Shown one piece after another: positions 1,014 through 64,000 of a DNA stretch of 64,000 nucleotides; the stretch's first letter is position 1, and every line of letters starts with the position of its first letter. The notes below the pieces were generated by a model. That model was not told where the DNA came from. It was given only the letters and a program-made list of their open reading frames with translations, and searched no databases. The translations under genes were made by a program, and so were the position numbers. This DNA is from a virus. Taxonomy: Duplodnaviria > Caudoviricetes. Location: the IMG/VR virus record IMGVR_UViG_3300014204_000120, positions 73,850 to 137,849 of that record; one strand, 5' to 3'.

Positions 1014-1379
1014 ATGAATGTTAGACATTGTGGAATGTTTGTAAAAGATTTAATAAAATCAGTTAATTTTTATAAACAATTAGGATTTGTTGAATATTAT
1101 AATAATATTGAAAAATGGAATTATTTTGGAGAATTGAAAATATCGAAACTTAAATCAGAAAATGGATTTAATATTGAATTAATTGAATCTGATAAAGTAA
1201 ATGAATTAAACGATAAACATCATATTGCATTAGAAGTTGAAAATGTAGATGATATTTATAATAAATTAAAAGATAATTTTAATTTTATTATAACACCAAC
1301 AATCTCGCCAGATGGATCAGCAAAGGTTGCTTTTTTTAAAGGATATGAAAATTATATTGAATTGGTTGAAATATTATGA
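1014..1379 (+). CDS. VOC/glyoxalase family protein
   Basis: HCGMFVKDL..SVNFY..LGF, IELIE, HHIALEVENVD, YIELVE. Confidence 0.85.
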   Translation: MNVRHCGMFVKDLIKSVNFYKQLGFVEYYNNIEKWNYFGELKISKLKSENGFNIELIESDKVNELNDKHHIALEVENVDDIYNKLKDNFNFIITPTISPDGSAKVAFFKGYENYIELVEIL

Positions 1380-3922: not shown

Positions 3923-4783
3923 ATGAATACTATTTTAGTTTCAGAGATTGGAATTAACGCGAACGGTTCTCTTGAGATAGCAAAAAAGTTAATAGATTTA
4001 GCTGTGTTAGGCGATTGTAAGTTTGTTAAATTTCAAAAAAGAACAGTTGAAGCTGTATATACTAAGGCTGAATTAGATAAACCTAGAGAATCTCCATGGG
4101 GAACAACTAATAGAGAACAAAAGATGGGATTAGAGTTTGGTAAAAAAGAGTATGATGAAATAGATAGATATTGTAAGGAAAAGGGTATAGGATGGTTTGC
4201 TTCTCCTTGGGATATAGATTCTGTTGACTTTTTAATGCAATATAATCCTAAGTATATTAAAGTAGCTTCTGCAATGGTAACTAATGAACCTTTATTAAAG
4301 AAAATTAATGAAGCTATTAAAGGAACACAAACTAAAGTAATTATAGCTACCGGTATGACTACAGAAACTGAGTTGTTTGAAGCTTTATCGATTTTAGGGA
4401 ATAATAATATAGAGTATATATTAGCGTGTACTTCGAGTTATCCTACACCAGTAAAAGATATGAATATGGCTAAAATAGCAACATTACAAGCTAAGTTTTT
4501 AGGAACATCATATAAAATTGGTTTTTCTAATCACTATTCAGGTTTAAAGTTTATTTTTATGGCTGCTACGTTAGGAGCTAGAATGATTGAGTATCATATA
4601 ACTTTAGATAGAACAATGTATGGAAGTGATCAGGCTTCTTCTATTGAACCATCAGGAGTATTAGAAATACCTTGTCATATTGAAATGATTGAAAATGCTT
4701 GGGGAAATGGAAAATTAGAGTGTATGCCTAGTGAATTACCAATTAAGGAAAAATTAAGAAAGAAGTCAACTACCGGCGGATAA
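3923..4783 (+). CDS. neuB: N-acetylneuraminate synthase (NeuB) family, no C-terminal SAF domain
   Basis: SEIGINANG, VKFQKR, KVASA, CTSSYPTP, GFSNH, IEYHITLDRTMYGSDQASS. Confidence 0.85.
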   Translation: MNTILVSEIGINANGSLEIAKKLIDLAVLGDCKFVKFQKRTVEAVYTKAELDKPRESPWGTTNREQKMGLEFGKKEYDEIDRYCKEKGIGWFASPWDIDSVDFLMQYNPKYIKVASAMVTNEPLLKKINEAIKGTQTKVIIATGMTTETELFEALSILGNNNIEYILACTSSYPTPVKDMNMAKIATLQAKFLGTSYKIGFSNHYSGLKFIFMAATLGARMIEYHITLDRTMYGSDQASSIEPSGVLEIPCHIEMIENAWGNGKLECMPSELPIKEKLRKKSTTGG

Positions 4784-14096: not shown

Positions 14097-15542
14097 ATGA
14101 AAAAATCATTTTCAAAATATTACTTTAAAGAAAACGTACTAGATAATTGGGATGAAATAAAACAAAAATATCCTAATATCCAAAACGCTATTGAATTAAT
14201 GGATAAAATAAACAAAGCAGGATTTGAAGCACTAATGGTTGGAGGAGTTGTTAGAGACTTAGTATTAGGTAATGAACCAAACGACGTAGATATTACAACT
14301 GACGCAATACCTGATCAAATTGAAAAAATATTTGGTAAAGTTATAGATATAGGTCAAAATAAAAAGATGGGTGTCTCCGTTGTACCATATAAAGGTGAAA
14401 ATTATGAAATTGCTACATATAGAAAAGATCAATTTAATGATTTAAGTAAAGGTAAAGGCGCTGATACTGTTGAACTAACTACTTCATTTAAAGACGATAC
14501 TAGTAGAAGAGACTTTAAGATCAACCAACTTGGAATTGATAAGGATGGTAATATAATAGATAATTGGGGTGGGTTAAAAGATATAAAAAATAAAGTAATA
14601 TCTACTGTTGGAGATCCAAATCTTAGATTTAAAGAGGACCAGATCAGAAGTCTAAGAGCCGTTCGATTTTCTTCTAGATTAGGATTTACTATTAGTCCTG
14701 AAACTATTGAAGCAATGAAACAAAATGCACCTGAAATAACTAAGGTAGCTCCAGAACGTATTACAAAAGAATTAATGAAGATGGCCGAACAAAGTGGACC
14801 TGCATTTGCTGAAGCTATTATAACAATGGATAAAGTAGGTTTGTTACAATATATATTACCTGAAATATTTAAAATGCATGAATTAGAACATAACAAAGAA
14901 TTTCATCCAGAAACAGACGATGAAGGTAAACATACAGTATTTGGGCATGTTATTCAAGCATTAAGATCACAACCATTAAAAGATAGTATTTTGAATTTAT
15001 CAGTTTTAATGCACGACGTAGGCAAAATAAATACTCAATCTATTGATGATCAAGGCTTCATACATTATTTAAGACACGCACAAGAAGCAGATAAACTAAT
15101 AGATCAAATAGCAGATAGACTTAAGTTTGATAATGAAACTCGCCGTAAAATACAATTTGCAGCTATTAATCATATGAAAGCGCACGAAATATTAGCAATG
15201 TCAAATAGTAAGATAGCAGAATTAATGAACAATGATGCTTTTGATATATTGATTAAGGTAGCAGAAGCTGATGCTAGAGCAAGAGGTAAACTGTTTGATG
15301 ATGTAGAATGGCAAAAGATATTATCCAAGATAAACGACATAGCTATTAAATTCAAGGATAAAAAGGCTAAAGATGCCGTAAAAAAGGTAGTTAATGGCAA
15401 TTGGGTTATGGGTTTAAAGGGTATAACAAAGCCAGGTCCTGAAGTTGGAAGAATTATAAATACTACAGTGGATTGGATTATAGATTCTGGTATTGATATG
15501 AATGATACTAAGGCAATAGAGGATTATATTAAAAGCATATGA
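14097..15542 (+). CDS. cca: Class II tRNA nucleotidyltransferase (CCA-adding enzyme) with HD domain
   Basis: VGGVVRD..LG..PNDVDITT, EIATYR, RRDFKIN, RFKEDQIRSLRAVRF (EDxxR), ERI..EL.K, MHDVGK; poly(A) polymerase or partial CC/A-adding activity is not excluded. Confidence 0.85.
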   Translation: MKKSFSKYYFKENVLDNWDEIKQKYPNIQNAIELMDKINKAGFEALMVGGVVRDLVLGNEPNDVDITTDAIPDQIEKIFGKVIDIGQNKKMGVSVVPYKGENYEIATYRKDQFNDLSKGKGADTVELTTSFKDDTSRRDFKINQLGIDKDGNIIDNWGGLKDIKNKVISTVGDPNLRFKEDQIRSLRAVRFSSRLGFTISPETIEAMKQNAPEITKVAPERITKELMKMAEQSGPAFAEAIITMDKVGLLQYILPEIFKMHELEHNKEFHPETDDEGKHTVFGHVIQALRSQPLKDSILNLSVLMHDVGKINTQSIDDQGFIHYLRHAQEADKLIDQIADRLKFDNETRRKIQFAAINHMKAHEILAMSNSKIAELMNNDAFDILIKVAEADARARGKLFDDVEWQKILSKINDIAIKFKDKKAKDAVKKVVNGNWVMGLKGITKPGPEVGRIINTTVDWIIDSGIDMNDTKAIEDYIKSI

Positions 15543-21890: not shown

Positions 21891-23003
21891 TTGATGTCTT
21901 TATCATATGATGAAATGAAGTTGAAGTTAATTCAGGCGTGTGATTCTTATTATAATAAATCATTTTCTTTTATAACAGATAAAGAATTTGATGACCTTAA
22001 AGATGCGTTTAAAGAACAATATCCAGATGATCCGTTTTTAAAAACCATTGGTGCTCCTGTTCCTGAAGCTTCTGATTGGTCTAAAGTAAAACATAGTATT
22101 CCTATGTGTTCGTGTAATAAGGTTAAAACTGTTGATGAATTTATAGATTGGTGTGCTTCTAATCGTTTTGATGCAGATACAGCTTTAATTACATCAGAAA
22201 AGTTAGATGGAATGTCTTTATCAATAGATTATATTAATGGTAAATTAGTTAATGGTATTACTCGTGGAGATGGTTTTATTGGTGAAGCAATTACACAAAA
22301 TGTAATTAAAATGCAAAATGTTAAAGTTAATCTTGATAATAAGTATACTGGGAGTCTGCGTGGTGAAGTTCTATTAAATAAAAATGATTTTAAGGCTGTT
22401 AATTTAATATGTGAAGCTCGTGGTGAAAAAGGATTTCAGAACATACGTAATGGAGCTTCTGGTATAGCTAAAAGATATGACTCTAAGTATTCAGAATATC
22501 TATATGTAAGATATTATTATGCTTCTGGTGATTTTAAAACCAAATCAGAAATGTATCAATTTATTGAATCATTAGGTTTAAAAACATGTAAACATTTTTC
22601 TGGAAACTTTGAAACATCTAAAATAGTTTATAATGAATACGAACAATCTATTAGAGCAGGATTGGATCATGCCATTGATGGATTAGTTATAGAACCAGAT
22701 AATATTGAAACGCTTAATGATTTAGGTATGCTTAATGAGAATTTGAGAGGTCAAATTGCTTGGAAGTTTACTAGTGAAACAGCAATGACTAAGATTAAGG
22801 ATATTGTCTGGCAGTTGGGTAACAGTTCGCGTATCACTCCTGTTGCAATTTTAGAGACAGTAGAATTAAATGGAGTTAATATTAGTCGTGCAACAATGCA
22901 TAATTTAGATATATTTGAAAAGTTAAAGCCGTATAAAGGGGCTACTTGTTTAATATCAAGACGTGGTGATGTAATTCCTTTTATTGAAAAAGTTTATCCT
23001 TAA
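21891..23003 (+). CDS. ligA: NAD-dependent DNA ligase, N-terminal half (domain Ia, adenylation, OB fold)
   Basis: YY...ITDKEFD, H.IPM.S, SEKLDG (KxDG), TRGDG..GE.IT, RGE, DGLV, AWKF, RATMHN, RRGDVIP, then stop. Confidence 0.9.
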   Translation: MMSLSYDEMKLKLIQACDSYYNKSFSFITDKEFDDLKDAFKEQYPDDPFLKTIGAPVPEASDWSKVKHSIPMCSCNKVKTVDEFIDWCASNRFDADTALITSEKLDGMSLSIDYINGKLVNGITRGDGFIGEAITQNVIKMQNVKVNLDNKYTGSLRGEVLLNKNDFKAVNLICEARGEKGFQNIRNGASGIAKRYDSKYSEYLYVRYYYASGDFKTKSEMYQFIESLGLKTCKHFSGNFETSKIVYNEYEQSIRAGLDHAIDGLVIEPDNIETLNDLGMLNENLRGQIAWKFTSETAMTKIKDIVWQLGNSSRITPVAILETVELNGVNISRATMHNLDIFEKLKPYKGATCLISRRGDVIPFIEKVYP

Positions 23004-24036: not shown

Positions 24037-25098
24037 ATGATTAAAAAGTATCGCTCACCAGAATATAACTATAACTTTAATACGGAAACAGGCTTCTTTG
24101 TTAGATGGGGTAAAACATTAGAAGAAGATCCTCGTTTTTCCCCGTTCGGTCCTGAAATATTAGATCTAGAAATTAGTATTAATGGGTGTCCAAACAAATG
24201 CCCAATGTGTTATAAAGATAATACTAATAAACTTCCTACTAATATGTCATTTGAAACATTTAAATTAATATTAGATAAAATGCCTGATACATTAACTCAA
24301 ATAGCTTTTGGAATTACTGGTATTCAAACAAATCCAGATTTTATTAAAATGTTAAAATATACTAAAGAAAAAGGAATTATACCTAATTTTACATTGTCAG
24401 GAATCGATTTAACAGATGAAATAGCTAAAGAAGTAGTTAATTATATTGGAGCTTGTGCTGTGTCAGCTTATGAAAGTAATAAAAATATATGTTATAATAC
24501 AGTTAAGAAATTTACGGATTTGGGTATTAAACAAACAAACATTCATTTATTCACATCAAAAGAATCTAAAGATTTTGTATACGAAGTATTAAATGATACA
24601 TTAATAGATGAAAGATTAAAAAATCTTAATGCTGTTGTTTTGTTAAAATGTAAACCTAAGGGTAGAGCTGCTAATAATTTTCATGTATTAACTACAAATG
24701 AATATAATGATTTGGTTAATTTTTGTTTGAAAAATAATATTAGATATGGATTTGATTCTTGCTCAACCCCAGATTTTGAAAATGCTATTGCGATTAATAA
24801 AGAGATGTCATTAAAACAGAAGTCTGATTTATTAATGATGTCAGAAAGTTGTGAGAGTTTTGGGTTGTTTTCATCGTATATAGATGTTTATGGAAATTAT
24901 TATCCGTGTAGTTTTGCTACAGGTGAAGGTGAATGGATAGAAGGATTGTCTGTTATAAATTGTAATAACTTTTTAAAAGATATATGGTTTAATGAAAAAG
25001 TTAATAAATATAGAAATATATCATTAAATACTTGTTATAAAAGCGGTTGTAGAAAATGTTTAATATTTGATATTAATCCTAAAGATTATGAAATTTAA
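24037..25098 (+). CDS. Radical SAM enzyme with C-terminal SPASM/twitch-like cysteines
   Basis: PEILDLEIS..CPNKCPMCY; TQIAFG; CES..FSSYIDVYG.YYPCSF; C....CRKC. Confidence 0.9.
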   Translation: MIKKYRSPEYNYNFNTETGFFVRWGKTLEEDPRFSPFGPEILDLEISINGCPNKCPMCYKDNTNKLPTNMSFETFKLILDKMPDTLTQIAFGITGIQTNPDFIKMLKYTKEKGIIPNFTLSGIDLTDEIAKEVVNYIGACAVSAYESNKNICYNTVKKFTDLGIKQTNIHLFTSKESKDFVYEVLNDTLIDERLKNLNAVVLLKCKPKGRAANNFHVLTTNEYNDLVNFCLKNNIRYGFDSCSTPDFENAIAINKEMSLKQKSDLLMMSESCESFGLFSSYIDVYGNYYPCSFATGEGEWIEGLSVINCNNFLKDIWFNEKVNKYRNISLNTCYKSGCRKCLIFDINPKDYEI

Positions 25099-31581: not shown

Positions 31582-32475
31582 ATGAAAAATTGTGAATTGG
31601 TTATAGAAACTATTCAGAATGAGTTAAAGTCTTATATTCAAAGTCATGATTTAAAGAGTTTAGTTTTAGGGGTGTCTGGTGGTATTGATTCTACATTATG
31701 TGCTGCTTTAGCTAGACCAGTATGTGATAGTTTAAATATTCCTCTTATCGGTCGAAGTATTCCTATTATTTCAAATAAACAGAACGAAATTGATAGAGCT
31801 AAGGCTATTGGTAATTTATATTGTCATAATTTTAAAGAAGTAAGTTTTAATGCAACATTTACAGGATTACAAAATTATATATTAGAGGTTGAAGGCATAC
31901 ATGATAAAATATCTGATGGCAATATTAAAGCTAGACTTCGTATGATATATCTTTATAACATTGCAGGATTAAATAAAGGTATGGTTCTTAGTACAGATAA
32001 TTATACAGAATATATGCTTGGTTATTGGACCATATGCGGCGATGTTGGGGATTATGAACTGATTAAGGCTTTATGGAAAACTGATGTATATGATTTAGCA
32101 AGACATATAATGAATAATTCATTAATACAAACTAAAGATTCGTGGAAATCAGAAGCTTTAAATGCTTGTATTCATGCTACACCAACAGCAGGATTAGGAG
32201 TTACTAATAGTGATTTAGATGAACTTGGTGCTGATTCATATGAAGAAGTAGATAAGATATTGAAAACTTGGCTAACAACAGATGCAGATTGTTTTTGTTG
32301 GGATGATTATTTATATTGGGATGGTAGACCTGAAAAATATGAAGATTTTGTAACTTATCGTCAAACATTTAAAGATCATCCTGTTGTTCAAAGGTATATT
32401 AAATCAATGTTTAAAAGAGAAATTCCTATAAGTAATTCTAGAGCTATATCTCGTTTAAGTAACATTTGGGTATAA
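31582..32475 (+). CDS. nadE: NH3-dependent NAD+ synthetase
   Basis: LGVSGGIDS, GNIKARLRM, STDNYTE...GYWT..GD, KTDVY.LA, PTAGL; no glutaminase domain. Confidence 0.92.
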   Translation: MKNCELVIETIQNELKSYIQSHDLKSLVLGVSGGIDSTLCAALARPVCDSLNIPLIGRSIPIISNKQNEIDRAKAIGNLYCHNFKEVSFNATFTGLQNYILEVEGIHDKISDGNIKARLRMIYLYNIAGLNKGMVLSTDNYTEYMLGYWTICGDVGDYELIKALWKTDVYDLARHIMNNSLIQTKDSWKSEALNACIHATPTAGLGVTNSDLDELGADSYEEVDKILKTWLTTDADCFCWDDYLYWDGRPEKYEDFVTYRQTFKDHPVVQRYIKSMFKREIPISNSRAISRLSNIWV

Positions 32476-37545: not shown

Positions 37546-38718
37546 ATGATAATTAATAGCCTGCTATCTCAAGACGTTTATAAACTAACAATGCTTCAAT
37601 TTTTTTATTATAAATTTCGTTATACTAGTGCTAAATATCGTTTTAAATGTAGAAATAAAGGTATTAATTTATTAGATTATAAAGACGAAATATATAAAGA
37701 AATAGAATATCTTTGCACTTTAAATTATACAGATGAAGAATTAACTTATCTAGAATCTTTAGGATACTTTAAACCAGAGTTTTTAAACTATCTTAAAACA
37801 TATCAATTAAGCACTGTTGATATTAATTTGGCGGAAAAAGATAAGAACTTAGATATAATGATGTATGGATTGTTAGTTGATACTTCTCCATTTGAAATAT
37901 TTGTACTAAAGATTGTACACGAAATCTATACTAGAAAAGTTAATCTTTCACTGAGTGGATTAGAATTAGACGAAGGTAGAAAAAGACTTAATAAAAAAAT
38001 AAATGATTTTAAAGAATTTACTAAAAATGAAGGATATAAGCCTAATGTGATTGATTTCGGTGGTAGAAGAGCTTTTACAACCAAGTATCATGAGTTTGTT
38101 GTTAAAACTTTAAAAGATAATGATATAATAACAGGAACAAGTGATATAGATTTAGCTAGACGATATAATTTAATGCCTGTTGGAACTATGGCTCATGAAT
38201 TTATACAAACATATCAATCTGTTGTAGATCCTTTACAAAGTCAGTCTAAAGCTTTATATGAATGGATTAACTTTTATGATGGTAAGTTGGGAATTGCTTT
38301 AAGTGATACTTTAGGCGATAAAAAGTTTTTAATGGATTTTAATTATGAGTTGGCTAATAGATATAGTGGAGTTCGACATGATTCAGGTGATCCAATTGTG
38401 TGGGGTGATATGATGTTAAAGCATTATTATAGTTTTGGTATTGATCCTAAAGAAAAGACTTTGGTATTTAGTGATGGATTAGACTTCCCAACAATGTTTA
38501 AATTAGCTAAATACTTTAAAGATAAAGTTAAGATTTCGTTTGGTATAGGAACAAATTTAACTAATGATTTAGGTGTACCAGCACTACAAAATGTTATTAA
38601 GCAGATTGAATGTAATTGGAAACCTACAGCAAAGCTTAGTAATAACCCTGATAAAACTATGTGTGAAGATTTTGACTATTTAGAATGTTTGAAGAAGAAA
38701 TTAAATGATGAAGTTTAA
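37546..38718 (+). CDS. pncB: Nicotinate phosphoribosyltransferase
   Basis: DVYKLTM.Q, DFGGRR.F, GTMAHE, LSDT, GVRHDSGDP, KTLVFSDGLD, FGIGTNLTND, AKLS.NP.K.MC (E. coli PncB-type). Confidence 0.92.
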   Translation: MIINSLLSQDVYKLTMLQFFYYKFRYTSAKYRFKCRNKGINLLDYKDEIYKEIEYLCTLNYTDEELTYLESLGYFKPEFLNYLKTYQLSTVDINLAEKDKNLDIMMYGLLVDTSPFEIFVLKIVHEIYTRKVNLSLSGLELDEGRKRLNKKINDFKEFTKNEGYKPNVIDFGGRRAFTTKYHEFVVKTLKDNDIITGTSDIDLARRYNLMPVGTMAHEFIQTYQSVVDPLQSQSKALYEWINFYDGKLGIALSDTLGDKKFLMDFNYELANRYSGVRHDSGDPIVWGDMMLKHYYSFGIDPKEKTLVFSDGLDFPTMFKLAKYFKDKVKISFGIGTNLTNDLGVPALQNVIKQIECNWKPTAKLSNNPDKTMCEDFDYLECLKKKLNDEV

Positions 38719-39643
38719 TTTTAATACAAACCATTATATTAAGGTAGTATCTGCGCGTAAAGAAGCAGGATTACCAGTTGAGAACCGTAATATTATGGTT
38801 GAAAGTAATCTAATTGGTAAAAAGGTAATATCTACTTTAAGCAATGAGACTTTTACTGTTCAAGCCGTGCATAGGTTATGGAAAAACGGTTGGTATGAAA
38901 TGTTGTTGTTAGTTAATAAAGTCGGAAGTCATTCGATGGCTGTATGGAAGATTTTTAATTGTAATGATCAATGTATAGAAAACTTATGTAAAAAAAGTCA
39001 TACTAATTGGAAAATACTAAGTCATGAACCAATGGAAAGATAATAGAAATAAAATAAAACATATTAAAATAATTCATTACTGTTGCTGCTGTTATAAACG
39101 TATTGAAACCTATTGGGATGAACAAGGATTACTTCAAGGTAAATGGAAAACGTTTGAAGCGATACCAAGTGAGTTATTAAATTGTTATGTTGCAGATCCA
39201 AAACTTATATTATGTAATCAATGCTACGGAACAGGTGAATGGAAAAAGAAAGGAAAAGGAAAATGTGCTTAGACTCATTTAAAACACGTAATAATACTTG
39301 TGATGTTGGTTATGGGTGGAAGATTTTTAACGAACGTAAAAATAGACAAATAAGATTTAGATATAGAAAACACGAGGGGAATTTTATAGTACCTATTAAT
39401 AAATGGTTGAAGATTAAATCTAAATCATATATTGATTCGTGGGGCGGAAAGTATCATACTGGTTTTCATATTTATACAGATTATAATGAAGCTAAAAAGA
39501 TATTTTCATTTATTTCGTTTGACAAAAATTGTATTATAAGGAAGGTTGCATTTAAAGGAGTCTATGCTATAGGTAGAGATTCTGGTGTGAAAGTTATAGT
39601 AGCCAGAGAAATGTTTGTATTACCTAAGAAGGAAAATGAATGA
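38705..39643 (+). other. Three coupled hypothetical ORFs (38705-39043, 39024-39272, ~39263-39643)
   Basis: Overlapping + strand ORFs with no recognisable family. Confidence 0.45.
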
Positions 39644-40569
39644 TATATACAGAATTGTTTGCTAAAGAACGCTTTGAAGCTCATGAACAATGGATTAAGG
39701 ATAACTTAATCTATGAATGTATTATGGGCTCACAAGCATATGGATTGGCTACAGCAGAATCAGATATTGATATAGTTGCTATAGTTATGCCTCAAGAAAT
39801 CCATTTATGGCCACAAAAGTATGGTTATATCTTAGGATTTGATTCGTTACCTAACTTTGAATCTAAAGATATTAAAGGCGAAAAGAAACGTATTCCATAT
39901 GAAGGTACTGATATAGAAGGAGAATGGACTTCACTAATACGTTTCTTTTATCTTGCAGGATTAAAAGGTTCACCCAATCTAATTGAAACTTTATTTGTTA
40001 GAAGAAACTTAGTTACTTTTGGTACTGATATTGCATGGAAGTTAAGAGATAATGCACAATTGTTTTTAAGTATGCGTTCATTTCATGCTTTTAAAGGTTA
40101 TGCTTTTGCACAATTACATAGAATTCGTTCAGATATTAAACGAGGTAAAACAGATAATCCTAAAAGACAACATTACTTAAATGAATTCGGTTTTGACATT
40201 AAAATGGCCTCACAAATTTTAAGACTATTAGATCAGTTAAATCAGATTCTTGATACTGGTACTTTAGATTTAATGCATAATAAAGAAGAAGCGAAATCTA
40301 TGCGTGCTGGTACTTGGGGTTCTTGGGATAGGTTTGAAAAGCATGTATTAGAACAATTAGACTTATTAGAAAAGAAAGCTTTAGTTCAAAATTCTATTTC
40401 AAATAAACCAAGATTAGGCGAACTTAAAAATCTATTAACTGAAATTCTTGAAGATTATTATGGTTCAGAACTTAATATGCAAAAACAAAGCAATGAATAT
40501 ATTTCAGTTAAAGATATTTGGAATAGATTTGATAGACTAGAAGAAAAAATAAATGAAAGGATTAAGTAA
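39640..40569 (+). CDS. Pol-beta superfamily nucleotidyltransferase (RlaP-like)
   Basis: GSQAYGLATAESDIDI, G.PN.IE.LF, F.GYA..Q, D.K.A....RL. Confidence 0.8.
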   Translation: MIYTELFAKERFEAHEQWIKDNLIYECIMGSQAYGLATAESDIDIVAIVMPQEIHLWPQKYGYILGFDSLPNFESKDIKGEKKRIPYEGTDIEGEWTSLIRFFYLAGLKGSPNLIETLFVRRNLVTFGTDIAWKLRDNAQLFLSMRSFHAFKGYAFAQLHRIRSDIKRGKTDNPKRQHYLNEFGFDIKMASQILRLLDQLNQILDTGTLDLMHNKEEAKSMRAGTWGSWDRFEKHVLEQLDLLEKKALVQNSISNKPRLGELKNLLTEILEDYYGSELNMQKQSNEYISVKDIWNRFDRLEEKINERIK

Positions 40570-42818: not shown

Positions 42819-43025
42819 ATGCAATTAAAACAAATAACTAATTTATCTCAAATAATCGATCAAGTTAATTTTCATATAAGTTTACTTTTATTACAGATTA
42901 ATTCTTTAGAAGAAATACGCTATACCATGAAATCGGGATATCAAATAAATAATATAGTTGAGACTCAAGTTATTTATCAAGTCGAGTCAAAAATTAAAGA
43001 TCAAATAAAGGAATTTTATGTTTAA
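42819..43025 (+). CDS. Isolated MKL-family small protein
   Basis: MQLKQI...TQVIYQVESKIKDQIKE. Confidence 0.55.
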   Translation: MQLKQITNLSQIIDQVNFHISLLLLQINSLEEIRYTMKSGYQINNIVETQVIYQVESKIKDQIKEFYV

Positions 43026-44346
43026 ATATAAAAAGATATATGTAGTATTAGGATTACTTTTATCATTAAATTGTTGTTATATTAAACCGTTAAGTTATCC
43101 TAAACCAGAAAATAAAAATAATTATTATTTGAGAGATACGTTGGATAGAATAACTATATATCATGGTGTTAATGTTTCAAACTATTCTAAACATTCAGAA
43201 GGTAATTTACCGTGGCAATCAAATGAAGATTTTTATAAAATGAAAGATTGGGGATTTAATATTGTTAGGTACTTAGTCTTTTGGAGTGCAATTGAACCAA
43301 CTAAAGGTAATTATGATACAGTTTATATTAATAATGTTTTAAATCAAATTAAGTTTTTAGATAACATAGGAATTACTACTATTATAGATATTCATCAAGA
43401 TTTATATGCAGATACGTTTGGTGGTAATGGTTTTCCGGATTGGACTATAGATGATGATAGTATTCCTTTTGGCGGATTAAAAGAACCTTGGAGTTTAACT
43501 TATTTGGATCCTGCAGTTATTGCCTCATATAATAATTTTTGGAATAATAAAGAATTAAAAACTAAGTATATTAAAATGATAGACCTTCTAGTTAATACAT
43601 TTGATACTATACCTGGAGTTTTAGGTATAGATGTAATGAATGAGCCTATTCCAAATAAATCACCTAATAGATTTGAAAGAACAACATTAACTAAGTTTTA
43701 TTATAATATAGAAAAGGTTTTTGTTGGGTCTAAGTTAAAAATGTTTTTTGAACCTTGGATGTCAACTAGTTCTATGCTACCTTCTTGTTTGAATTTTAAA
43801 CCTAAAGTTTCATCTGTATATTACCCTCATTATTATGATGTATATGTAGATGCACAAAAGCCTTATGAAGATCTTAGTAAGAATATAATGAATAATATGT
43901 TTCCTTTAAAGATATCTGAAGCTCAAAAGTATGGTGTTCCTATAATGATTGGAGAGTTTGGAGTCTCTTTAAATTATAATAACTTTCTTAAAGATTTATT
44001 GAATATCTATGATAAATATAATGTAGGATGGTGTTATTACGCTTATGATAAACTTTCATATAGTTATTATGGTATATTAGATGATAATGGTAATTTAAGA
44101 CCTCAAATGAAGTACTTAGTTAGAGCATATCCACAAAAGATAGCCGGTAATAATCCAAAATGGCAAACAACAGAACACGAATTTACTTTACAATATGAAA
44201 AGCATGGTAATGGTCAAACAGAAATTTATATACCTAGAACTGATAGTATTACAATTATAACATATGGTTCTTGGCTTTTGGACGGAAAAATGTTATATTA
44301 TACAAATACAGATAGTTTATTACAACAAATTAGGATAACTTATTAA
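43018..44346 (+). CDS. Glycoside hydrolase family 5, endoglycoceramidase-like, secreted or lipoprotein
   Basis: Signal-like N-terminus with Cys; HGVN, GFN.VRY..W..IEP, DIHQD, NEP (acid/base), PHYY, GEFG (nucleophile), RAYP..IAG. Confidence 0.85.
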   Translation: MFKYKKIYVVLGLLLSLNCCYIKPLSYPKPENKNNYYLRDTLDRITIYHGVNVSNYSKHSEGNLPWQSNEDFYKMKDWGFNIVRYLVFWSAIEPTKGNYDTVYINNVLNQIKFLDNIGITTIIDIHQDLYADTFGGNGFPDWTIDDDSIPFGGLKEPWSLTYLDPAVIASYNNFWNNKELKTKYIKMIDLLVNTFDTIPGVLGIDVMNEPIPNKSPNRFERTTLTKFYYNIEKVFVGSKLKMFFEPWMSTSSMLPSCLNFKPKVSSVYYPHYYDVYVDAQKPYEDLSKNIMNNMFPLKISEAQKYGVPIMIGEFGVSLNYNNFLKDLLNIYDKYNVGWCYYAYDKLSYSYYGILDDNGNLRPQMKYLVRAYPQKIAGNNPKWQTTEHEFTLQYEKHGNGQTEIYIPRTDSITIITYGSWLLDGKMLYYTNTDSLLQQIRITY

Positions 44347-57862: not shown

Positions 57863-59122
57863 AAGAAAACAATATGAAACTAATTGATTTAAGAAACAAA
57901 TCAATGAAACTAAGTAAATTAAAAAAAGAGTTAGAACTTAAGTTTCAAATAACTGATAGAGTCAGGTTTAAAGTAGAGTCTTTAAGGTATCCATTCAGCA
58001 CTCAATTTATTTTACAAGTTTGGTTTTATTTTAATTTACGAGTTTGGTCTCATGTTATGTTTCAGATACATCATAAAATTCAGGACCAAGTAAATGAAAC
58101 TAAGTGAATTAAAATATATAAAAAATAAGTCGTTTCAAGTAGAACAACAAATTAATATTGACATAAGTTCTAAAGTTATAAATGGTATTACTTGCCGTTT
58201 TTATAATGTACATTTTTATAAAGAATGGCAACAATTTGAATTTCGTGTTGGTGATGAAGTACTGAGTCAACTCATAGAGATTTTTTACTTGGAACCAATC
58301 AAATGAAATTAATCGAACTAAAAGACATTGCAAAAAATTATTTTGATTTTATCTATATATCATTACCATCTAAATATGCAAATATAGATTTCCAATTATG
58401 GAACAATCTTAACTCTCAATTCTATTCTGATTTATGTTTAAGCAAAATTCATACTCAGATTTCTGGTATTATATATTCACAAGTCATGTTACAAATGAAA
58501 AGAAATATAAGAATAGAATCATGAAACTAACTAAAATAAAAAATAGGTATCAAGTCAATTTCTCAAGTCTATTTTATTCTCAATTAGATTCTCAAGTTAA
58601 ATCTCAAGTCAGTTCTAATGTTATAGTTCAAGTTATGTCTTATGTCGTGGATCAAGTCGATTCTCAAGTCGTCTGGTCTCAATTTCGGGATCAAATCAAT
58701 GAAACTAAATGAAATAGAAACAAGATGTAATATTGATTATCAAGTTAATTCATATAAATTTTCTAATGTTATGGTTGAAATGCACGATAGCATCCATTCT
58801 AAAATTCATTATTATGTTCTATATTTAGTAAATGAAATTAATGATAGAAATGGGATCAAATAAATGAAACTAAGTAAAATAAACAATGATCAAGTTTGGT
58901 CTCAAGTCAAATCTCAAGTCTTTTATCATAAATTTTCAACATTATCTTTTAATATTGAAACATTTAATATTAGAACAGATATAAATTATAAAATTAACAT
59001 GCTTCTTAATAAATGGATATTATATAATGCAAAACAATTCTTACTATATAGACATAGTACTAATTTAAATAAAGAAATACTTTGTGAAGGAATACACAAT
59101 ACTTTAACTAATAAGGGATAAT

Positions 59123-59338
59123 ATGGAACATCTAAAATCCTTCTCAATGGGTATGATTTATCTAATCTCAATTATAATTATGTTTATTATATTTAAACCT
59201 ACAGTAAAACATACATCTATAATAACAACCCATAATATCCATACAATAACTTATCAAGATACCTTATGGGTTTTAATACCTTTAGATGCTTCAGCTATGG
59301 TTAAACATCCAAAATACAAACCATTCTATTTTAAATAA
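59123..59338 (+). CDS. Small membrane protein
   Basis: One hydrophobic segment. Confidence 0.5.
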   Translation: MEHLKSFSMGMIYLISIIIMFIIFKPTVKHTSIITTHNIHTITYQDTLWVLIPLDASAMVKHPKYKPFYFK

Positions 59339-59342
59339 GACC

Positions 59343-59371
59343 TTGACATTTTTATTGCCATGATGTATATT
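59343..59371 (+). promoter_or_regulatory. Early sigma70 promoter
   Basis: TTGACA(59343)-N17 ending TGATG-TATATT(59366). Confidence 0.85.
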
Positions 59372-59399
59372 CTTTATAACCTTAACAAAGAAGGTCTTT

Positions 59400-59684
59400 A
59401 TGGCAAGAGTAGACCAAATTGGTACAACTAGCACGTCAATTATAACTGATAAAAAGTATACCAAAATAATCTATCATACCACTCCTGTTGTTAAATTCAG
59501 TGAAAAATTCATTATTCTTAACAACGGTGGATATCAAACAAATACCACCAAACACCGTATGAATCAAACAAGTAATGAATTTGGGCTCAATTTCTTCGTT
59601 TACACGTTTGCCCACAAATGGTATGTACAGTGCCCAAATAAGAAGATCATATTATTTAAAAACAATATGAGAATTAAAAGGTAA
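59400..59684 (+). CDS. Conserved phage early hypothetical protein
   Basis: YH.T.VV...LN.GGY.T.TTK.RMNQ. Confidence 0.65.
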   Translation: MARVDQIGTTSTSIITDKKYTKIIYHTTPVVKFSEKFIILNNGGYQTNTTKHRMNQTSNEFGLNFFVYTFAHKWYVQCPNKKIILFKNNMRIKR

Positions 59685-59950
59685 TTATGCATAGATAAAT
59701 ATGAAACTTAAAGATTATATTAAACCGTCTAATCATTCTGATGATACTATATGCTGTTTAGTTCATCATAATATCCTGGTTAAAGTTAATAATGATATTA
59801 TTTTTAAAATTGAAAACATAAGAGACATAGGCCCTCCAAATAATTTTTCAAGCCAATATACTGTTAATTTTTATATCAATAATTTTGTTGCTTCTAAAGT
59901 TTATGTTCCAGTTCATTCATGTGTAATATCTGAAATGGTGGATATATTAA

Positions 59951-60172
59951 ATGAAACTAAGTAACATTAAAAATAAAAGTAATGCCAATTTTCAAATAGC
60001 AGTTAAAATTCAGTGACGTGTAGAAAATAAAATCGAATCATATATTAACTATGCTCTTACTTTTAATTATGGATTATATCTGAATGCACAACGTGTTTTT
60101 GATTTTGAAAATATAACAAATACTTGTTTTTATATTGATGATCAAATTAAAGAAACTAAGAAAATTAAATAA
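59951..60172 (+). pseudogene. MKL-family ORF with an in-frame TGA at 60014-60016
   Basis: MKLSNIKNK...KIQ*RVENKI...DDQIKETKKIK; the frame stays open for 51 codons after the stop and ends with the family tail. Confidence 0.65.
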
Positions 60173-60247
60173 TTGTCATAGTCAAACTGGTACTTTTAGA
60201 GGTAGAAATAAAAAGAATTGTTAGTAAGCTTTATGCTCTTTGAAATT

Positions 60248-60532
60248 GCCGCTGTGGTGGAATGGCAGACACTGGGGACTCAAAATGGGTCGCTTATCTT
60301 GAAAAGGATAAGTAGTAAGGTGTAAATTCGATGAACGGCTCTCTGAAATGGAAACCCAACGTCGAGCGAAGCCCGAAAGGGAACGTGTAGAGACTATAAT
60401 CACCCACCTAAAGCTGAAGCTATGGCGAAGGCATAGTCCAGACCACAAACATTTATATGGTAGCGAAAGCTATAGTGGTAAGTAAAATCCCCTGGCCGTA
60501 AGGCCGTCCCGGTTCAAGTCCGGGCAGCGGCA
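60248..60532 (+). tRNA. trnL: tRNA-Leu(UAA), intron-containing; exons 60248-60280 and 60483-60532; no encoded CCA
   Basis: Acceptor GCCGCTG/CAGCGGC plus A73; D-arm GTGGAATGGCAGACAC; spliced anticodon arm GGGGA-CT^TAA-AA-TCCCC; variable arm GGCC-GTAA-GGCC; T-arm CCCGG-TTCAAGT-CCGGG. Confidence 0.92.
60281..60482 (+). ncRNA. Group I self-splicing intron (202 nt, compact IC3-like, no ORF)
   Basis: P1 GACUC/GGGUC with U60280-G60288 wobble; P2 cttatctt-gaaa-aggataag; P4 ttcgatg/cgtcgag; P7 gacta(60392)/tagtc(60434) within R gtagagacta and S gaaggcatagtcc; P9 tagc-gaaa-gcta; terminal G60482. Confidence 0.9.
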
Positions 60533-63500
60533 TTTAATTATTATAATCAATTATGAAACTAAAACATATAACAAAATTAGATCAAATCCAAGCAACGGTT
60601 TGGCATGATATTAGATCTTATAACCCTTATAGCTCAATCAGTTCTAATGTCATGCTTCAATTCTATCATAATATTCAGGAACAAGTTAATGAAACTAAAT
60701 AAAACTAAACAAAATATTTTAAACTATCAGACAGCGGGTCCTAAATTTGTTAATTTTTATTCTGTACTATGGGATGATTGCCATAAATCTAATCCTCAAT
60801 TATTCATGTTATGGCAGGAATTTCGTACAAAAATTCCTAATCCTAGACAATTAAATATTGGAAACCCATAAATGAAACTAAAGAATTATACTTATAAAGA
60901 TAATACTGATTTTGGTACTATGACGTCAAAGTTGAATGAATTTTATCTAATTTGGTGGAAAACTTTAGGTGTATTCGCTTATGCGTTACAGTTAAAATAT
61001 AAGAACTTAGATTTAGATATATTAGTTAATCTTAAAAGGAGTATAGATGAAACTAAGGGATGTAACAAGTAAATTATGCGTTTTTGATTATTCTTATAAT
61101 ATACATGCAAAAATGAATGATATTTTATATGATAATTTATCTGTTGAAGCAAGGTTTCATATAATATTATTAGGTATACTGAATAATGATTGGATGTTTA
61201 TAAAGGATGCTATAGATGAAGTTAAAAGATATAGTTAATTTAATTAGTGTAAAAACAACTATAGGAGTAATTGAATATGTTATTTGTTCAAATAATATGG
61301 ATAATATAATGTTTAGAAATCTTATAATGCAGTTAGAACAAAATAAATTAATGACAATAGATATTAAGTTTAGGTATATATTTTTACGTGATGTGTTAGG
61401 ATTTATGGGAAACGAAATAGATAGATTAACTAAGGTTATATGAAACTAAATCAATTCATTAATCCAAATAAACTCATTAAGTCTATACTCAAAACTAATA
61501 ATACTATATCGACTAATACTGATAGGTTATTGATTCAAATGTGCATAGAACAAATAGAATGGGATACTTTTGAAAATATAGATGATAAATTTTTAGGTAT
61601 ATTAGATAGATCTGACTATTGGACCTTACTTGATGGGTTAGTATATGAAATTAATAAAAATTAAAGATATTGGATATTTAGCTTGGCCTATAACCGATAA
61701 TATAGTGTGTGAGATGTGGGATATATTTAATGATGAACTTTATTATTTAGATTGGGATTTTAAGGGTAGGTTTTTAACTTTGTTATTTAGTGAAATTAAT
61801 TTATTGAAGGAGAATCTTAGTGAATTTAAAGAAGATAAATGAAAAGTTATGTGATGATTTATATAATGAATTAATGAAGCTTGTATATAAGCAGGTGGCA
61901 GATGATAATTTAAAGCCTCATCATTTTAATAAGCTTTTAACTTTAAACAATAAGGATAATATAAATTGGCATATGATAATAGATTGTATAAATGAGAATA
62001 TTATAAATGCGGTAGTAAAATGAAGTTAATAGAACTAAAAAATCGTAATTTAGTATATATGTCTAGTATTAAGTTTATATCTGATTGGATAATTGGTATG
62101 AGAAAGGAAGTTCATATATCTATGTTATTACAGAATAGTAAATGGACTTGTATGGATGTTCCTGTATATATAAATGATGCTGTAGATAAGGAGTTATATG
62201 AAGTTAAAAGAGGTTGGTAATAAATATATGAGTTATCCTATAGCAATAAATCATTTATTTAATAGGACTTATGATATTATTGTTGGTGGCCTGACATATA
62301 ATTTGGATGAGTTATTTATTAGATTAGATGTATTGGATGTTAATTTACTTATGATTATGATAGACGATATAATAGATGAGGAGTTAATCAAATGAGGTTA
62401 GGAGATTATATAGGCGTAGATATAATGGATGATATGTACTGGGAGTTAATAATGATTAATAAGAACATAAATGTTTTTAGTGATATTAAAAGAAATATAA
62501 GTTGGTTATTACCTAAATGTATATATCAAACGAAAATAGATTTAAATAGATATGATAGTTTAAAGACTTTAATAGAATTAGAAATATATGATACTTATGG
62601 ACTTAGGTGACTAAATGAAGTTAAAAGAACTATTACATAAACCTTATACATGTGGTTCGTGTATGGGAGATATTAGTATAAAGATATGTGGATTAATTGT
62701 TTTATCTATTAATATAAATTTACTTAATTGGAAGAGCAGTTTAAATGAATTACTTATACTGAGGATAATAAGTGAAGGTATAAATGAAAATAAAAGAATT
62801 AAAGTATAATTTAGTTTATAGTGATGTGATATGTGATTCTTTGAATTATATTAGATTTTTGGAATTGAGATTAGATATGGATAATTCAATATCTTATAAG
62901 GTACTTATGAATTTATGGATACCTGCTTCACATACGAATGGAAGGAATATAATAGATAATGAGTTAAAGGAGATATATGAAGTTAAGTGAGATTAGAAGT
63001 AGTTTAGATATTTTGCCTGATTTATTAAGGAATATTTTTTATAATAGTATTGAGCTTAAGATATATGAAGCAGGGTTATGGCGTAAGTTAATAAATTTAC
63101 ATCATAATAATATTAGAATAGAGTATAATGTACATTCAAGGGTTATAGATTTAATTTATCCTATTCTTATTAGAGGTCTTAATGAAACTAAAAGAGATTA
63201 ATAATTGTTTAGAGATGGATATGCAGATATTCGATAGTATATTTTTGAGAGGAGTTGAGATAAGTATTAAAAACATTAATTATAGAATTAAAATTGGTAT
63301 AAATTTAAAAATGAACTTAGGATTATGGCATCAAGCATATTTTAATATAAAGAATGAATTAAATGAAACTAAATGAAATAAAAAACTATTCACAAATGCG
63401 TATACAAGTATCAGTTAAGGTATATAAAGAACTTAAATCTTTATTAAATTTAGTACCTTATATACCTCAAATAGATACATGTATAAGGCAAAATATACCT

Positions 63501-64000
63501 TATGTATGGAGGCTGGTTTATTATAGAATAAAAGATGAAATTAATGAAACATTTAAATATACATTGATAGATAACGGTAGCTAATTTTGTTGAAAGAAAA
63601 ATATATGGAACTAAATAGCCACAGATTTATAGAAAATAAGAAATACCAATTTATGTCTCGAATTAATCAAATAGTTAAGGATCAAATTAGTTTTCATGAT
63701 TGGGACAATGTTCTAAATCAGGTTAGTTTTAAAGTAGATTCTAGGGTATGGTCTTATCTATACTTTGAAGTTAGAGGTAAAATAAATGAAACTAATAGAT
63801 CTTAAAATATCAGAAACCAACCATAATAATATCAGATCTATTTTAGGCACTATAGAAAATCACATATACGAACAAACTTGGCAAAACGGATATAAAACTG
63901 TTATGGATATTAATGTTAGAAAACATATTCAAATTAAACTAAGACAATGTTATCATCAAATTTTAAATCAAGTAATATATGAAACTAAATAACTTTAAAA

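What the first reader, a model, noticed from the sequence alone, without database searches (positions are those of the whole stretch)
60248..60532. Phage tRNA-Leu(UAA) with a group I intron at position 33/34 whose first bases mimic a CAA anticodon
Seen: the P1 U-G wobble and terminal G place the 202-nt intron between U33 and U34. Unspliced, the 5' part reads GGGGA-CT-CAA-AA, resembling Leu(CAA); spliced, it reads CT-TAA-AA. There is no homing endonuclease ORF. Known: the classic cyanobacterial and plastid tRNA-Leu(UAA) intron lies one base later (U^AA), and phage group I introns are mostly in protein genes. Inference: an independent insertion. It could shield the gene or precursor from anticodon nucleases or tRNA-targeting integrases, or delay tRNA availability.
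Basis: partly seen in the sequence, partly recalled or inferred. Interest (0 to 1): 0.7.

Follow-up and report, generated by a model that had tools for sequence, protein, structure and literature searches.

The report
Self-splicing intron in phage tRNA-Leu
The only tRNA gene on this large AT-rich phage contig, a leucine tRNA for the phage's commonest leucine codon, is split one base before its anticodon by a small, intact-looking self-splicing (group I) intron; the case is real but belongs to an intron class already catalogued in bacteria, and its resemblance to a CAA anticodon looks like a by-product of the intron's own fold.

Summary
Window 60248-60532 is a tRNA-Leu gene: exons 60248-60280 and 60483-60532, split by a 202-nt subgroup IC3 group I intron (60281-60482) between U33 and U34.

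- **Junction:** of the eight possible loop junctions, only this one has a U before the 5' splice site and a G ending the intron. The joined exons give an 83-nt tRNA-Leu(UAA).
- **Empty site:** a related, syntenic metagenome contig carries the same gene without the intron. It matches the predicted junction 58/58 and reads CT-TAA-AA.
- **Homology:** a profile built from 36 other tRNA-Leu introns hits this one over its full length (E=1e-34). Helices P2-P9 covary. Rfam's group I model and default ARAGORN find nothing.

- **Site:** the 33/34 site is the 'Leu.2Ug' class of Williams (2020 preprint, bacteria). It occurs in at least 22 viral contigs and 45 bacterial species' genomes.
- **Origin:** the viral members form one clade nested among classical 34/35 tRNA-Leu introns. 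It is therefore a close relative of the classical intron, not an unrelated insertion.
- **CAA look-alike:** it is not conserved (6 of 14 viral members, 0 of 18 bacterial). Intron base +1 C pairs with the guide G, and the loop that follows is A-rich. It does make ARAGORN -i miscall the anticodon as CAA.

This scan has already reported the same class in other phages. Verdict: new member of a known kind.

The parts
60248..60280 (+). 5' exon of tRNA-Leu(UAA): acceptor strand, D arm, 5' strand of the anticodon stem, C32, U33
   Evidence: Sequence. ARAGORN cloverleaf of the joined exons. Identical 33/33 in the intron-less contig L284.
60281..60482 (+). Group I intron, subgroup IC3-like, 202 nt, no ORF
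   Evidence: nhmmer profile of 36 other tRNA-Leu introns: E=1.3e-34, full length. Alignment A1. Covariation.
60483..60532 (+). 3' exon: U34 A35 A36 A37 A38, 3' strand of the anticodon stem, long variable arm, T arm, acceptor strand, discriminator A. No CCA is encoded (TTT follows).
   Evidence: The first 10 nt directly follow U33 in the intron-less allele L284.
60277..60291 (+). P1: GACU^C / GGGUC with loop AAAAU. U60280.G60288 is the 5' splice-site wobble pair, and C60281-G60287 extends the helix into the intron.
   Evidence: Pairs verified. Opposite U33 the guide has G in 6/6 33/34-site introns and A in 31/31 34/35-site introns. The GGGTC guide was required when selecting the 33/34 set, so its constancy there is by construction.
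60293..60312 (+). P2: 8-bp hairpin closed by a GAAA tetraloop
   Evidence: Compensatory changes in relatives. L290 has C-G changed to U-A.
60319..60322 (+). P3 5' strand (GGUG), pairs with 60401-60404
   Evidence: ours GGTG/CACC, L016 GATG/CATC, L006 TTCCGT/ACGGAA. RNAalifold recovers P3.
60328..60365 (+). P4 (60328-60333 with 60360-60365) enclosing P5 (60337-60338 with 60355-60356 and an inner hairpin)
   Evidence: 99-100% of cells paired, with compensatory changes. Recovered by RNAalifold.
60366..60386 (+). P6 (GCG/CGU) and P6a (CCC GAAA GGG)
60390..60396 (+). P7 5' strand, G(A)GACUA with a bulged A; guanosine-binding helix; pairs with 60434-60439
   Evidence: Nearly invariant GUAGAGACUA and UAGUCC. 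99% paired, with 3 covarying pairs.
60401..60404 (+). P3 3' strand (CACC)
60407..60425 (+). P8 hairpin, CCUAAAGC UGAA GCUAUGG. It resembles the 11-nt GAAA-tetraloop receptor, the likely dock for the P2 loop.
   Evidence: The receptor reading comes from my knowledge of the motif CCUAAG/UAUGG and is an inference.
60434..60439 (+). P7 3' strand (UAGUCC)
60443..60478 (+). P9 (CCAC/GUGG), small P9a hairpin, and P9b (GUAGC GAAA GCUAU)
   Evidence: P9b has 5 of 5 pairs with compensatory changes and 99.5% of cells paired. Recovered by RNAalifold.
60482..60482 (+). Omega G, the last intron base, before the 3' splice site
   Evidence: GUGGUAAG is shared by all aligned introns, but this tail was part of the search pattern used to collect them, so its constancy in the set is by construction. 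Independent support: the -1/omega test and the empty-site allele.
14097..15542 (+). Context only: phage-encoded tRNA nucleotidyltransferase (CCA-adding enzyme). The tRNA gene encodes no CCA.
   Evidence: PHROG 2244, E=1e-67. Pfam PolyA_pol and PolyA_pol_RNAbd.

Best explanation
A compact, ORF-less group I intron of the bacterial tRNA type (IC3-like) sits between U33 and U34 of a phage-encoded tRNA-Leu(UAA) gene.

**Inferred mechanism (standard group I chemistry)**
1. The guide sequence GGGUC pairs with exon bases GACU plus intron base C+1 to form P1.
2. A free guanosine bound in P7 attacks the bond after U33, the U of the U.G wobble pair.
3. The terminal G60482 then enters the same pocket.
4. 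The freed 3'-OH of U33 attacks the bond after that G, joining the exons to give the loop CU-UAA-AA.

After end trimming and CCA addition (the phage encodes a CCA-adding enzyme), the 83-nt class II tRNA reads UUA, and probably UUG. UUA is the phage's dominant leucine codon.

**Role of the intron**
The intron is best seen as an optional selfish passenger, since a syntenic relative has the same gene uninterrupted. It is a member of the 'Leu.2Ug' class. Its phage lineage is nested inside the classical tRNA-Leu(UAA) 34/35 intron family.

**The CAA look-alike**
It arises because +1 C pairs with the 5'-most guide G and the P1 loop is A-rich. One possibility is that this C-G pair leaves U33.G as the only wobble pair and so fixes the cleavage site.

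**Shown versus inferred**
- Shown: anatomy, homology, covariation, the empty-site allele and codon usage.
- Inferred: actual self-splicing, tRNA function and the reason for +1 C.
For: - **Junction rule:** only the 33/34 junction has U(-1) and omega G, and the joined exons fold as tRNA-Leu(taa).
- **Empty site:** L284 is syntenic with the phage contig. It is 58/58 identical to leader + 5' exon + first 10 nt of the 3' exon, with no intron. An intron-bearing relative, L244, comes from the same metagenome.
- **Homology:** nhmmer E=1.3e-34 over the full length, with a profile that excludes this sequence. blastn hits go to introns in Atu_ph07 tRNA-Leu, a Microcoleus phage tRNA-Arg and a Kolpuevirus helicase gene.
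- **Structure:** 85% of pair cells are standard pairs, against 75% in shuffles and 34-42% when the partners are slid by 1-3 columns. 35 pairs show double changes, with 0/500 shuffles reaching this. RNAalifold independently recovers P2-P6, P8 and P9. P2 and P3 compensations are visible by eye.
- **P1 and site:** the guide base opposite U33 is G in the 33/34 class and A in the 34/35 class.
- **Class known:** Williams 2020 includes the seed Eba21.Leu.2Ug with P1 GGACUC/GGGUCC.
- **Need for the tRNA:** TTA is 64% of Leu codons, 50 per 1000 codons, in a 29% GC genome. This is the contig's only tRNA.
Against: - No experiment shows splicing.
- Rfam's Intron_gpI gives no hit, even at E<=10. Williams 2020 notes that the model has no bacterial seeds.
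- My own covariance model could not be calibrated.
- P1 is short (5 bp) and I see no convincing P10.
- The '+1 C fixes the splice site' idea is weakened because 15 of 18 bacterial members have U at +1.
- The intron-less contig ends 10 nt past the junction, so the rest of that allele is unseen.
- The contig is about 53% complete by CheckV, so other tRNA genes may exist.
Confidence: 0.88

Rival explanations
1. The intron is kept by the phage for a purpose. It might delay or gate supply of the phage's only tRNA, for instance through dependence on GTP or Mg2+. Alternatively it might hide the gene or precursor from host anticodon nucleases or tRNA-directed enzymes, with the CAA-like start acting as a decoy.
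For: - The viral 33/34 introns form a clade of 14 distinct sequences, all without endonuclease ORFs. This fits long retention.
- The tRNA serves about 5% of all codons.
- CAA starts are somewhat more frequent than column frequencies predict, 6 against 3.1 of 14. They persist in the two closest relatives, L244 and L290.
- Phage tRNAs have been proposed as counters to tRNA-cleaving defences (PMC10264068, seen but not read here).
Against: - A syntenic relative from the same sample has the gene without the intron, so the intron is dispensable.
- CAA is absent from 8 of 14 viral and 18 of 18 bacterial members.
- In the precursor those bases are in P1 and its 5-nt loop, not in a 7-nt anticodon loop.
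- The spliced tRNA has an ordinary loop and is as exposed to nucleases as any other.
- Retention of ORF-less introns is expected anyway, because only a precise deletion is tolerated.
Confidence: 0.07
2. The gene is a tRNA-Leu(CAA) whose intervening sequence lies after position 37/38, as ARAGORN's intron mode reports, and is removed by proteins. Any other junction that keeps CAA would fall under the same rival.
For: ARAGORN -i calls tRNA-Leu(caa) i(39,202). The repeat [C/T]AAAAU on both sides of the intron makes six of the eight possible junctions read CAA.
Against: - None of those junctions has U(-1) with omega G.
- The insert is a complete group I core.
- The intron-less allele reads TAA.
- Bacteria and phages are not known to have the archaeal/eukaryal tRNA splicing endonuclease (general knowledge).
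Confidence: 0.02
3. The intron is a decayed relic that no longer splices, so the tRNA gene is a pseudogene.
For: There is no endonuclease ORF and no Rfam hit. P3 is only 4 bp with flanking mismatches. P1 is short.
Against: - All 53 columns that are invariant across the 37-sequence alignment are kept in this copy, including GUAGAGACUA, UAGUCC and the GAAA loops.
- Every helix is intact.
- Close relatives L244 and L290 differ by compensatory changes, not disruptive ones.
- The exons are 100% conserved with the intron-less allele.
Confidence: 0.04

Closest known systems
'Leu.2Ug' tRNA group I introns (K. P. Williams, bioRxiv 2020, 10.1101/2020.01.27.920355; seed Eba21.Leu.2Ug)
   Same: Same host gene type (tRNA-Leu) and same site after the second loop base (U33). 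U at -1 and G at omega. Same P1 design (GGACUC / GGGUCC there, GACUC / GGGUC here). Same core motifs and the same P9 three-way junction ending ..GUGG..AG.
   Different: That class was described from bacterial genomes. This copy is on a phage contig, is much shorter than the seed (202 nt, no peripheral insertions) and belongs to a phage-only clade.
[quoted passage not shown] Agrobacterium phage Atu_ph07, L003; uncultured phage LR756511, L004)
   Same: Same tRNA species and anticodon. Homologous along the whole intron. The same GAAA loops, receptor-like P8, P7 and P9 tail. The viral 33/34 clade is nested among these introns in the tree.
   Different: The classical site is one base later (CUU^AAAA against CU^UAAAA). 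Its guide has A, not G, opposite U33 and wobbles with U34.
Cyanobacterial tRNA-fMet intron ('fMet.2Ug') and Azoarcus tRNA-Ile / Agrobacterium tRNA-Arg introns ('Ile2.5Ug', 'Arg.5Ug')
   Same: [quoted passage not shown] The size is close to the roughly 205-nt Azoarcus ribozyme (size from memory).
   Different: Different tRNA hosts. Azoarcus and Agrobacterium introns lie after position 36.
Group I introns of phage protein genes (e.g. the Kolpuevirus helicase-gene intron, L002, next to a GIY-YIG endonuclease gene)
   Same: The P7-P9 3' domain is about 85% identical over 56 nt.
   Different: The host gene is protein-coding and an endonuclease gene is associated. Here the host is a tRNA gene with no endonuclease nearby.

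Membership tests
Group I intron | P1 helix in which the last exon base is a U in a U.G wobble pair with the internal guide sequence | tested here: met
   U60280.G60288 within GACUC/GGGUC. The G opposite U33 is specific to the 33/34 class: 6/6, against A in 31/31 of the 34/35 class.
Group I intron | Terminal guanosine (omega G) at the 3' end of the intron | tested here: met
   G60482. It is the only junction with U(-1) and G(omega), and the empty-site allele agrees.
Group I intron | Conserved core P3-P9, with the P7 pseudoknot helix carrying a bulged A (guanosine-binding site) | tested here: met
   All helices are present. Covariation is far above the shuffled and slid controls. RNAalifold recovers P2-P6, P8 and P9.
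Group I intron | Match to the curated covariance model (Rfam RF00028 Intron_gpI) | tested here: not met
   No hit at the gathering score or at E<=10. Williams 2020 states that none of the model's seeds is bacterial. A profile of tRNA-Leu introns built here gives E=1.3e-34.
Group I intron | Self-splicing with guanosine cofactor | not testable with these tools
   Needs in vitro transcription and splicing, or RNA data.
Leu.2Ug class (Williams 2020) | tRNA-Leu gene interrupted after anticodon-loop position 2 (U33), with U(-1) and G(omega) | tested here: met
   The seed row was compared.
Classical tRNA-Leu(UAA) intron (Leu.3Ug) | Insertion between U34 and A35 | tested here: not met
   The site is one base upstream. 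The intron is homologous in sequence.
Subgroup IC3 | Compact periphery: GAAA loops on P2 and P9 docking into 11-nt-type receptors in P8 and P5 | tested here: inconclusive
   L2 and L9b are GAAA, and P8 carries CCUAAA..UAUGG. The P5 receptor is atypical in this copy. No 3D test was possible. The subgroup label comes from the literature on its relatives.
Protein-spliced (bulge-helix-bulge) tRNA intron at 37/38 | Bulge-helix-bulge motif at the exon-intron boundaries | not tested
   No formal motif search was run. This reading is contradicted by the group I core and by the TAA empty site.

The most novel reading that the evidence does not exclude
The ORF-less intron is moving now between co-circulating phages. 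Intron-plus and intron-minus alleles of an identical tRNA gene occur in one metagenome. Movement could be by guide-directed reverse splicing into GACU^ sites or through a trans-acting endonuclease. The 33/34 class may have arisen from the 34/35 class by a one-base slide (guide A to G, plus one U after omega G), which would be a rare traceable case of group I intron sliding. Alternatively, the phage clade keeps the ribozyme as a gate on its only tRNA.
Probability: 0.1. Interest if true: 0.55.

Novelty: new member of a known kind. Interest (0 to 1): 0.3.

Why it matters
- **Annotation:** standard tools miss this gene. Default ARAGORN and Rfam find nothing, and ARAGORN's intron mode assigns the wrong anticodon (CAA instead of UAA). 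Phage tRNA inventories and codon-supply analyses will therefore be wrong for such genomes. Here the missed gene is the contig's only tRNA and serves its most used leucine codon.
- **Biology:** it adds to evidence that group I introns are common in phage tRNA genes, contrary to a 2014 review (PMC3984707) stating that all phage introns then known lie in protein-coding genes.
- **Mobility:** it gives a clean intron-plus / intron-minus pair for studying how ORF-less tRNA introns move or are lost.
- **Limit:** it does not reveal a new mechanism.

Tried and rejected
- **Detectors:** default ARAGORN found no tRNA. Rfam at gathering score and at E<=10 found no group I or tRNA hit.
- **Folding:** the single-sequence MFE fold mispairs P3, P4 and P7, so I did not use it for the anatomy.
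- **Covariance model:** I used an nhmmer profile and pair counts instead.
- **Search for relatives:**
  - Megablast of 12 kb against GenBank phages: no relative.
  - Exact exon patterns in viral contigs: none.
  - The search for related loci with the DUF932 protein: none.
- **Multiple origins of the 33/34 site:** the free tree needs 3-4 changes, but a single clade of all 33/34 introns is not rejected (AU p=0.34). The number of origins stays open.
- **CAA as a conserved decoy:** rejected on frequency.
- **Endonuclease:** none in or near the intron. The only HNH match is about 123 kb away, and there is no GIY-YIG match. The longer viral relatives (380-590 nt) also lack ORFs, but one bacterial member, L066, carries an HNH ORF.

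Full report
**1. What is there**

The window is the last 64 kb of a 137,849-bp IMG/VR virus contig (CheckV completeness 53%, GC 29%). Nearly all long ORFs are on one strand. Their products hit phage families and typical large-phage auxiliary genes:
- a CCA-adding enzyme
- an NAD-dependent DNA ligase
- NAPRTase and NAD synthase
- radical SAM enzymes
- DUF932

At 60248-60532 the sequence reads as a class II tRNA cut in two:
- 5' exon 60248-60280: GCCGCUG..GGGGACU, ending at U33.
- A 202-nt insert, 60281-60482.
- 3' exon 60483-60532: UAAAAUCCCC, then a long variable arm, the T arm, the acceptor strand and discriminator A. TTT follows, so no CCA is encoded.

**2. Where the junction lies**

I generated all eight possible junctions in the anticodon loop. 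Only the one between U33 and U34 has a U before the 5' splice site and a G as the last intron base. Six of the other seven would read CAA. The exons joined at that point are called tRNA-Leu(taa), 83 nt, by ARAGORN.

Independent support comes from a metagenome scan with a 22-mer of the 5' exon. It recovered three relevant contigs:
- **L244 and L290** carry the intron and are about 94-95% identical to the window over the tRNA region and adjoining flank.
- **L284** is collinear with the phage region upstream of the tRNA (92% identity over 275 bp). Its last 58 bases are identical, 58/58, to the window's 15-nt leader plus the 5' exon joined directly to the first 10 bases of the 3' exon.

L284 is therefore an intron-less allele reading CT-TAA-AA. 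It comes from the same metagenome as the intron-bearing L244. An assembler mis-join is unlikely, because the two flanks share only AAAAT. The contig ends there, as expected at an assembly branch point, so the rest of that allele is unseen.

**3. Is the insert a group I intron?**

Rfam's Intron_gpI gives no hit at the gathering score or even at E<=10. Williams 2020 notes that this model has no bacterial seeds.

Homology is nevertheless clear:
- blastn against GenBank phages finds the P7-P9 domain in four places: the intron of Agrobacterium phage Atu_ph07 tRNA-Leu, an HNH-bearing tRNA-Leu intron of a 595-kb uncultured phage, a Microcoleus phage gene annotated as a 286-nt tRNA-Arg, and a Kolpuevirus helicase-gene intron.
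- A profile HMM built from 36 other tRNA-Leu introns, without this one, matches it over model positions 2-209 at E=1.3e-34. It is the only hit in the contig.

I assigned P1-P9 by eye and checked every pair. On a 37-sequence MAFFT alignment:
- 85% of pair cells are standard pairs, against 75% in column shuffles and 34-42% when partners are slid by 1-3 columns.
- 35 of 54 pairs show changes on both sides.
- No shuffle out of 500 reaches any of the observed measures.

RNAalifold, given no structure, recovers P2, P3, P4, P5, P6, P6a, P8, P9 and P9b. P2 and P3 score poorly in MAFFT columns. Read directly, they show clean compensation, for example P3 as GGTG/CACC here, GATG/CATC in L016 and TTCCGT/ACGGAA in L006.

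The core motifs GUAGAGACUA and UAGUCC (P7, with a bulged A), the GAAA loops on P2 and P9b, and the receptor-like CCUAAA..UAUGG in P8 are all intact. I see no sign of decay.

**4. P1 and the one-base difference from the classical site**

An exact search for the 3' junction AGTGGTAAG|TAAAATCC found 22 viral contigs and 45 bacterial species' genomes. The bacterial hits are mostly Armatimonadota, plus Bacteroidota, Proteobacteria and others. Not every hit was verified to be a split tRNA-Leu: 14 distinct viral and 18 distinct bacterial introns passed the full exon and P1 checks. The classical junction AGTGGTAAG|AAAATCC gave at least 119 viral contigs, and 90 of those loci parsed as complete split tRNA-Leu genes.

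| Class | 5' exon end | Guide sequence | Pairing |
|---|---|---|---|
| Classical (34/35) | GGACUU | ..GAGU.. | U34.G, U33-A |
| This class (33/34) | GGACU | GGGUC | U33.G; intron base +1 pairs with the next G |

In the alignment, the base opposite U33 is A in 31/31 classical introns and G in 6/6 of this class.

Intron base +1 is C in 11 of 14 viral members of this class and U in 15 of 18 bacterial members.

**5. Relationship to the classical intron**

I built an ML tree from 179 core columns. P1 and the pattern-fixed tail were excluded, and a tRNA-Arg intron served as outgroup.
- All 14 distinct viral 33/34 introns fall in one clade (UFboot 97, SH-aLRT 92). The window sits in a 9-member subclade (100/99).
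- That clade is nested among viral 34/35 introns.
- The bacterial 33/34 introns fall elsewhere in the best tree, but a single clade of all 33/34 introns is not rejected (AU p=0.34).

The intron is thus a close relative of the classical tRNA-Leu intron that uses the neighbouring phosphodiester. How often the shift happened, and in which direction, remains open. Two caveats apply: the sample was selected for one 3' tail, and the alignment is short.

**6. The CAA look-alike**

Unspliced, the text reads CT-CAA-AA, and ARAGORN's intron mode indeed reports tRNA-Leu(caa) with the intron at position 39. Three points count against mimicry as a device:
- In the precursor, C+1 pairs with guide G60287 and the following AAAAU is the 5-nt P1 loop.
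- That loop is 57% A across the viral members.
- CAA starts 6 of 14 distinct viral introns, against 3.1 expected from column frequencies, and 0 of 18 bacterial ones.

The two nearest relatives keep it (CAAAAU and CAAAAAU), which shared descent explains. I read it as a by-product of P1 and loop composition. One possible reason for C at +1 is that it leaves U33.G as the only wobble pair. That is an inference, and the bacterial members with U at +1 weaken it.

**7. Function and context**

- TTA makes up 64% of leucine codons in ORFs of at least 150 aa, 50 per 1000 codons. It is the fifth most used codon.
- This is the only tRNA ARAGORN finds on the contig, even with intron mode.
- There is no endonuclease gene in or beside the intron. 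The contig's single HNH match is about 123 kb away.
- None of the viral relatives with longer introns carries an ORF. One bacterial member has an HNH ORF.
- In relatives, the split gene usually lies inside tRNA arrays. It sometimes sits beside an intact tRNA-Leu(CAA) or a second intact tRNA-Leu(UAA).

**8. Comparison with what is known**

Williams (bioRxiv 2020) lists the four classical bacterial tRNA intron types (Leu.3Ug, Arg.5Ug, fMet.2Ug, Ile2.5Ug) plus 17 new ones. His seed alignment contains Eba21.Leu.2Ug, with P1 GGACUC/GGGUCC. That is the same site and design as here.

A 2014 review stated that all phage introns then known lie in protein-coding genes. I found no paper describing phage tRNA group I introns, although GenBank already annotates one.

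Earlier reports of this scan have described the same class in other phages. My tests agree with them.

**9. Verdict**

This is a real, well-formed group I intron at U33/U34 of a phage tRNA-Leu(UAA) gene. It is a new member of a known kind.
- The proposed decoy, shield or timing roles are unsupported.
- The intron is optional among close relatives.
- Its practical importance is for annotation.
- The intron-plus / intron-minus pair is a modest lead for work on intron mobility.

Noticed in passing
window 57874-64000: The tRNA gene sits inside a long run of same-strand mini-ORFs of about 60-90 aa. Another first-stage note on this window describes them as a hypervariable tandem array. L290 and L284 show that the array is collinear but only 75-94% identical in relatives.
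   Followed up: partly
window 14097-15542 and 39640-40569: The phage encodes a CCA-adding tRNA nucleotidyltransferase (PHROG 2244, E=1e-67; Pfam PolyA_pol) and an RlaP-family nucleotidyltransferase of the 'RNA repair pathway'. Its single tRNA gene lacks an encoded CCA.
   Followed up: partly
window 31582-32475, 37546-38718, 21891-23003: NAD synthase, nicotinate phosphoribosyltransferase and an NAD-dependent DNA ligase. Together they form an NAD+ supply-and-use set like that reported for gut jumbo phages (title seen; paper not read).
   Followed up: no
window 1376-2770, 3923-4783, 24037-25098, 43018-44346: B12-binding radical SAM enzyme, NeuB-family sialic-acid-type synthase, a second radical SAM protein and a GH5 glycoside hydrolase: unusual auxiliary genes for a phage.
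   Followed up: no
L013:6686-6767 and L012:7284-7370: In two viral relatives the intron-split tRNA-Leu(UAA) lies next to an intact tRNA-Leu(CAA) (L013), or the locus also holds a second, intact tRNA-Leu(UAA) (L012).
   Followed up: no
L002 (Kolpuevirus sp. 'frurule', OQ198718.1 about 76450-76700): A group I intron with the same P7-P9 tail lies between an annotated GIY endonuclease gene and the replicative helicase CDS of a crAss-like phage. No intron is annotated there.
   Followed up: no
L066 (Armatimonadales MAG), intron of 767 nt: This bacterial member of the 33/34 class carries a 156-aa ORF with an HNH motif inside the intron. L038 and L042 (788 and 789 nt) have inserts of similar size and may carry the same ORF, but I did not scan them.
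   Followed up: no
alignment A1, columns 2-6 with 270-274: RNAalifold pairs the exon bases GGACU with the P7 3' strand AGUCC in all 37 sequences, with no covariation. This could be an alternative pairing that competes with P1 and P7 in the precursor, or it could be chance, because exon GACU resembles the P7 5' strand GACUA.
   Followed up: no
L026:1643-1720: ARAGORN reports a tRNA-Tyr with the odd anticodon ATA in a viral tRNA array.
   Followed up: no
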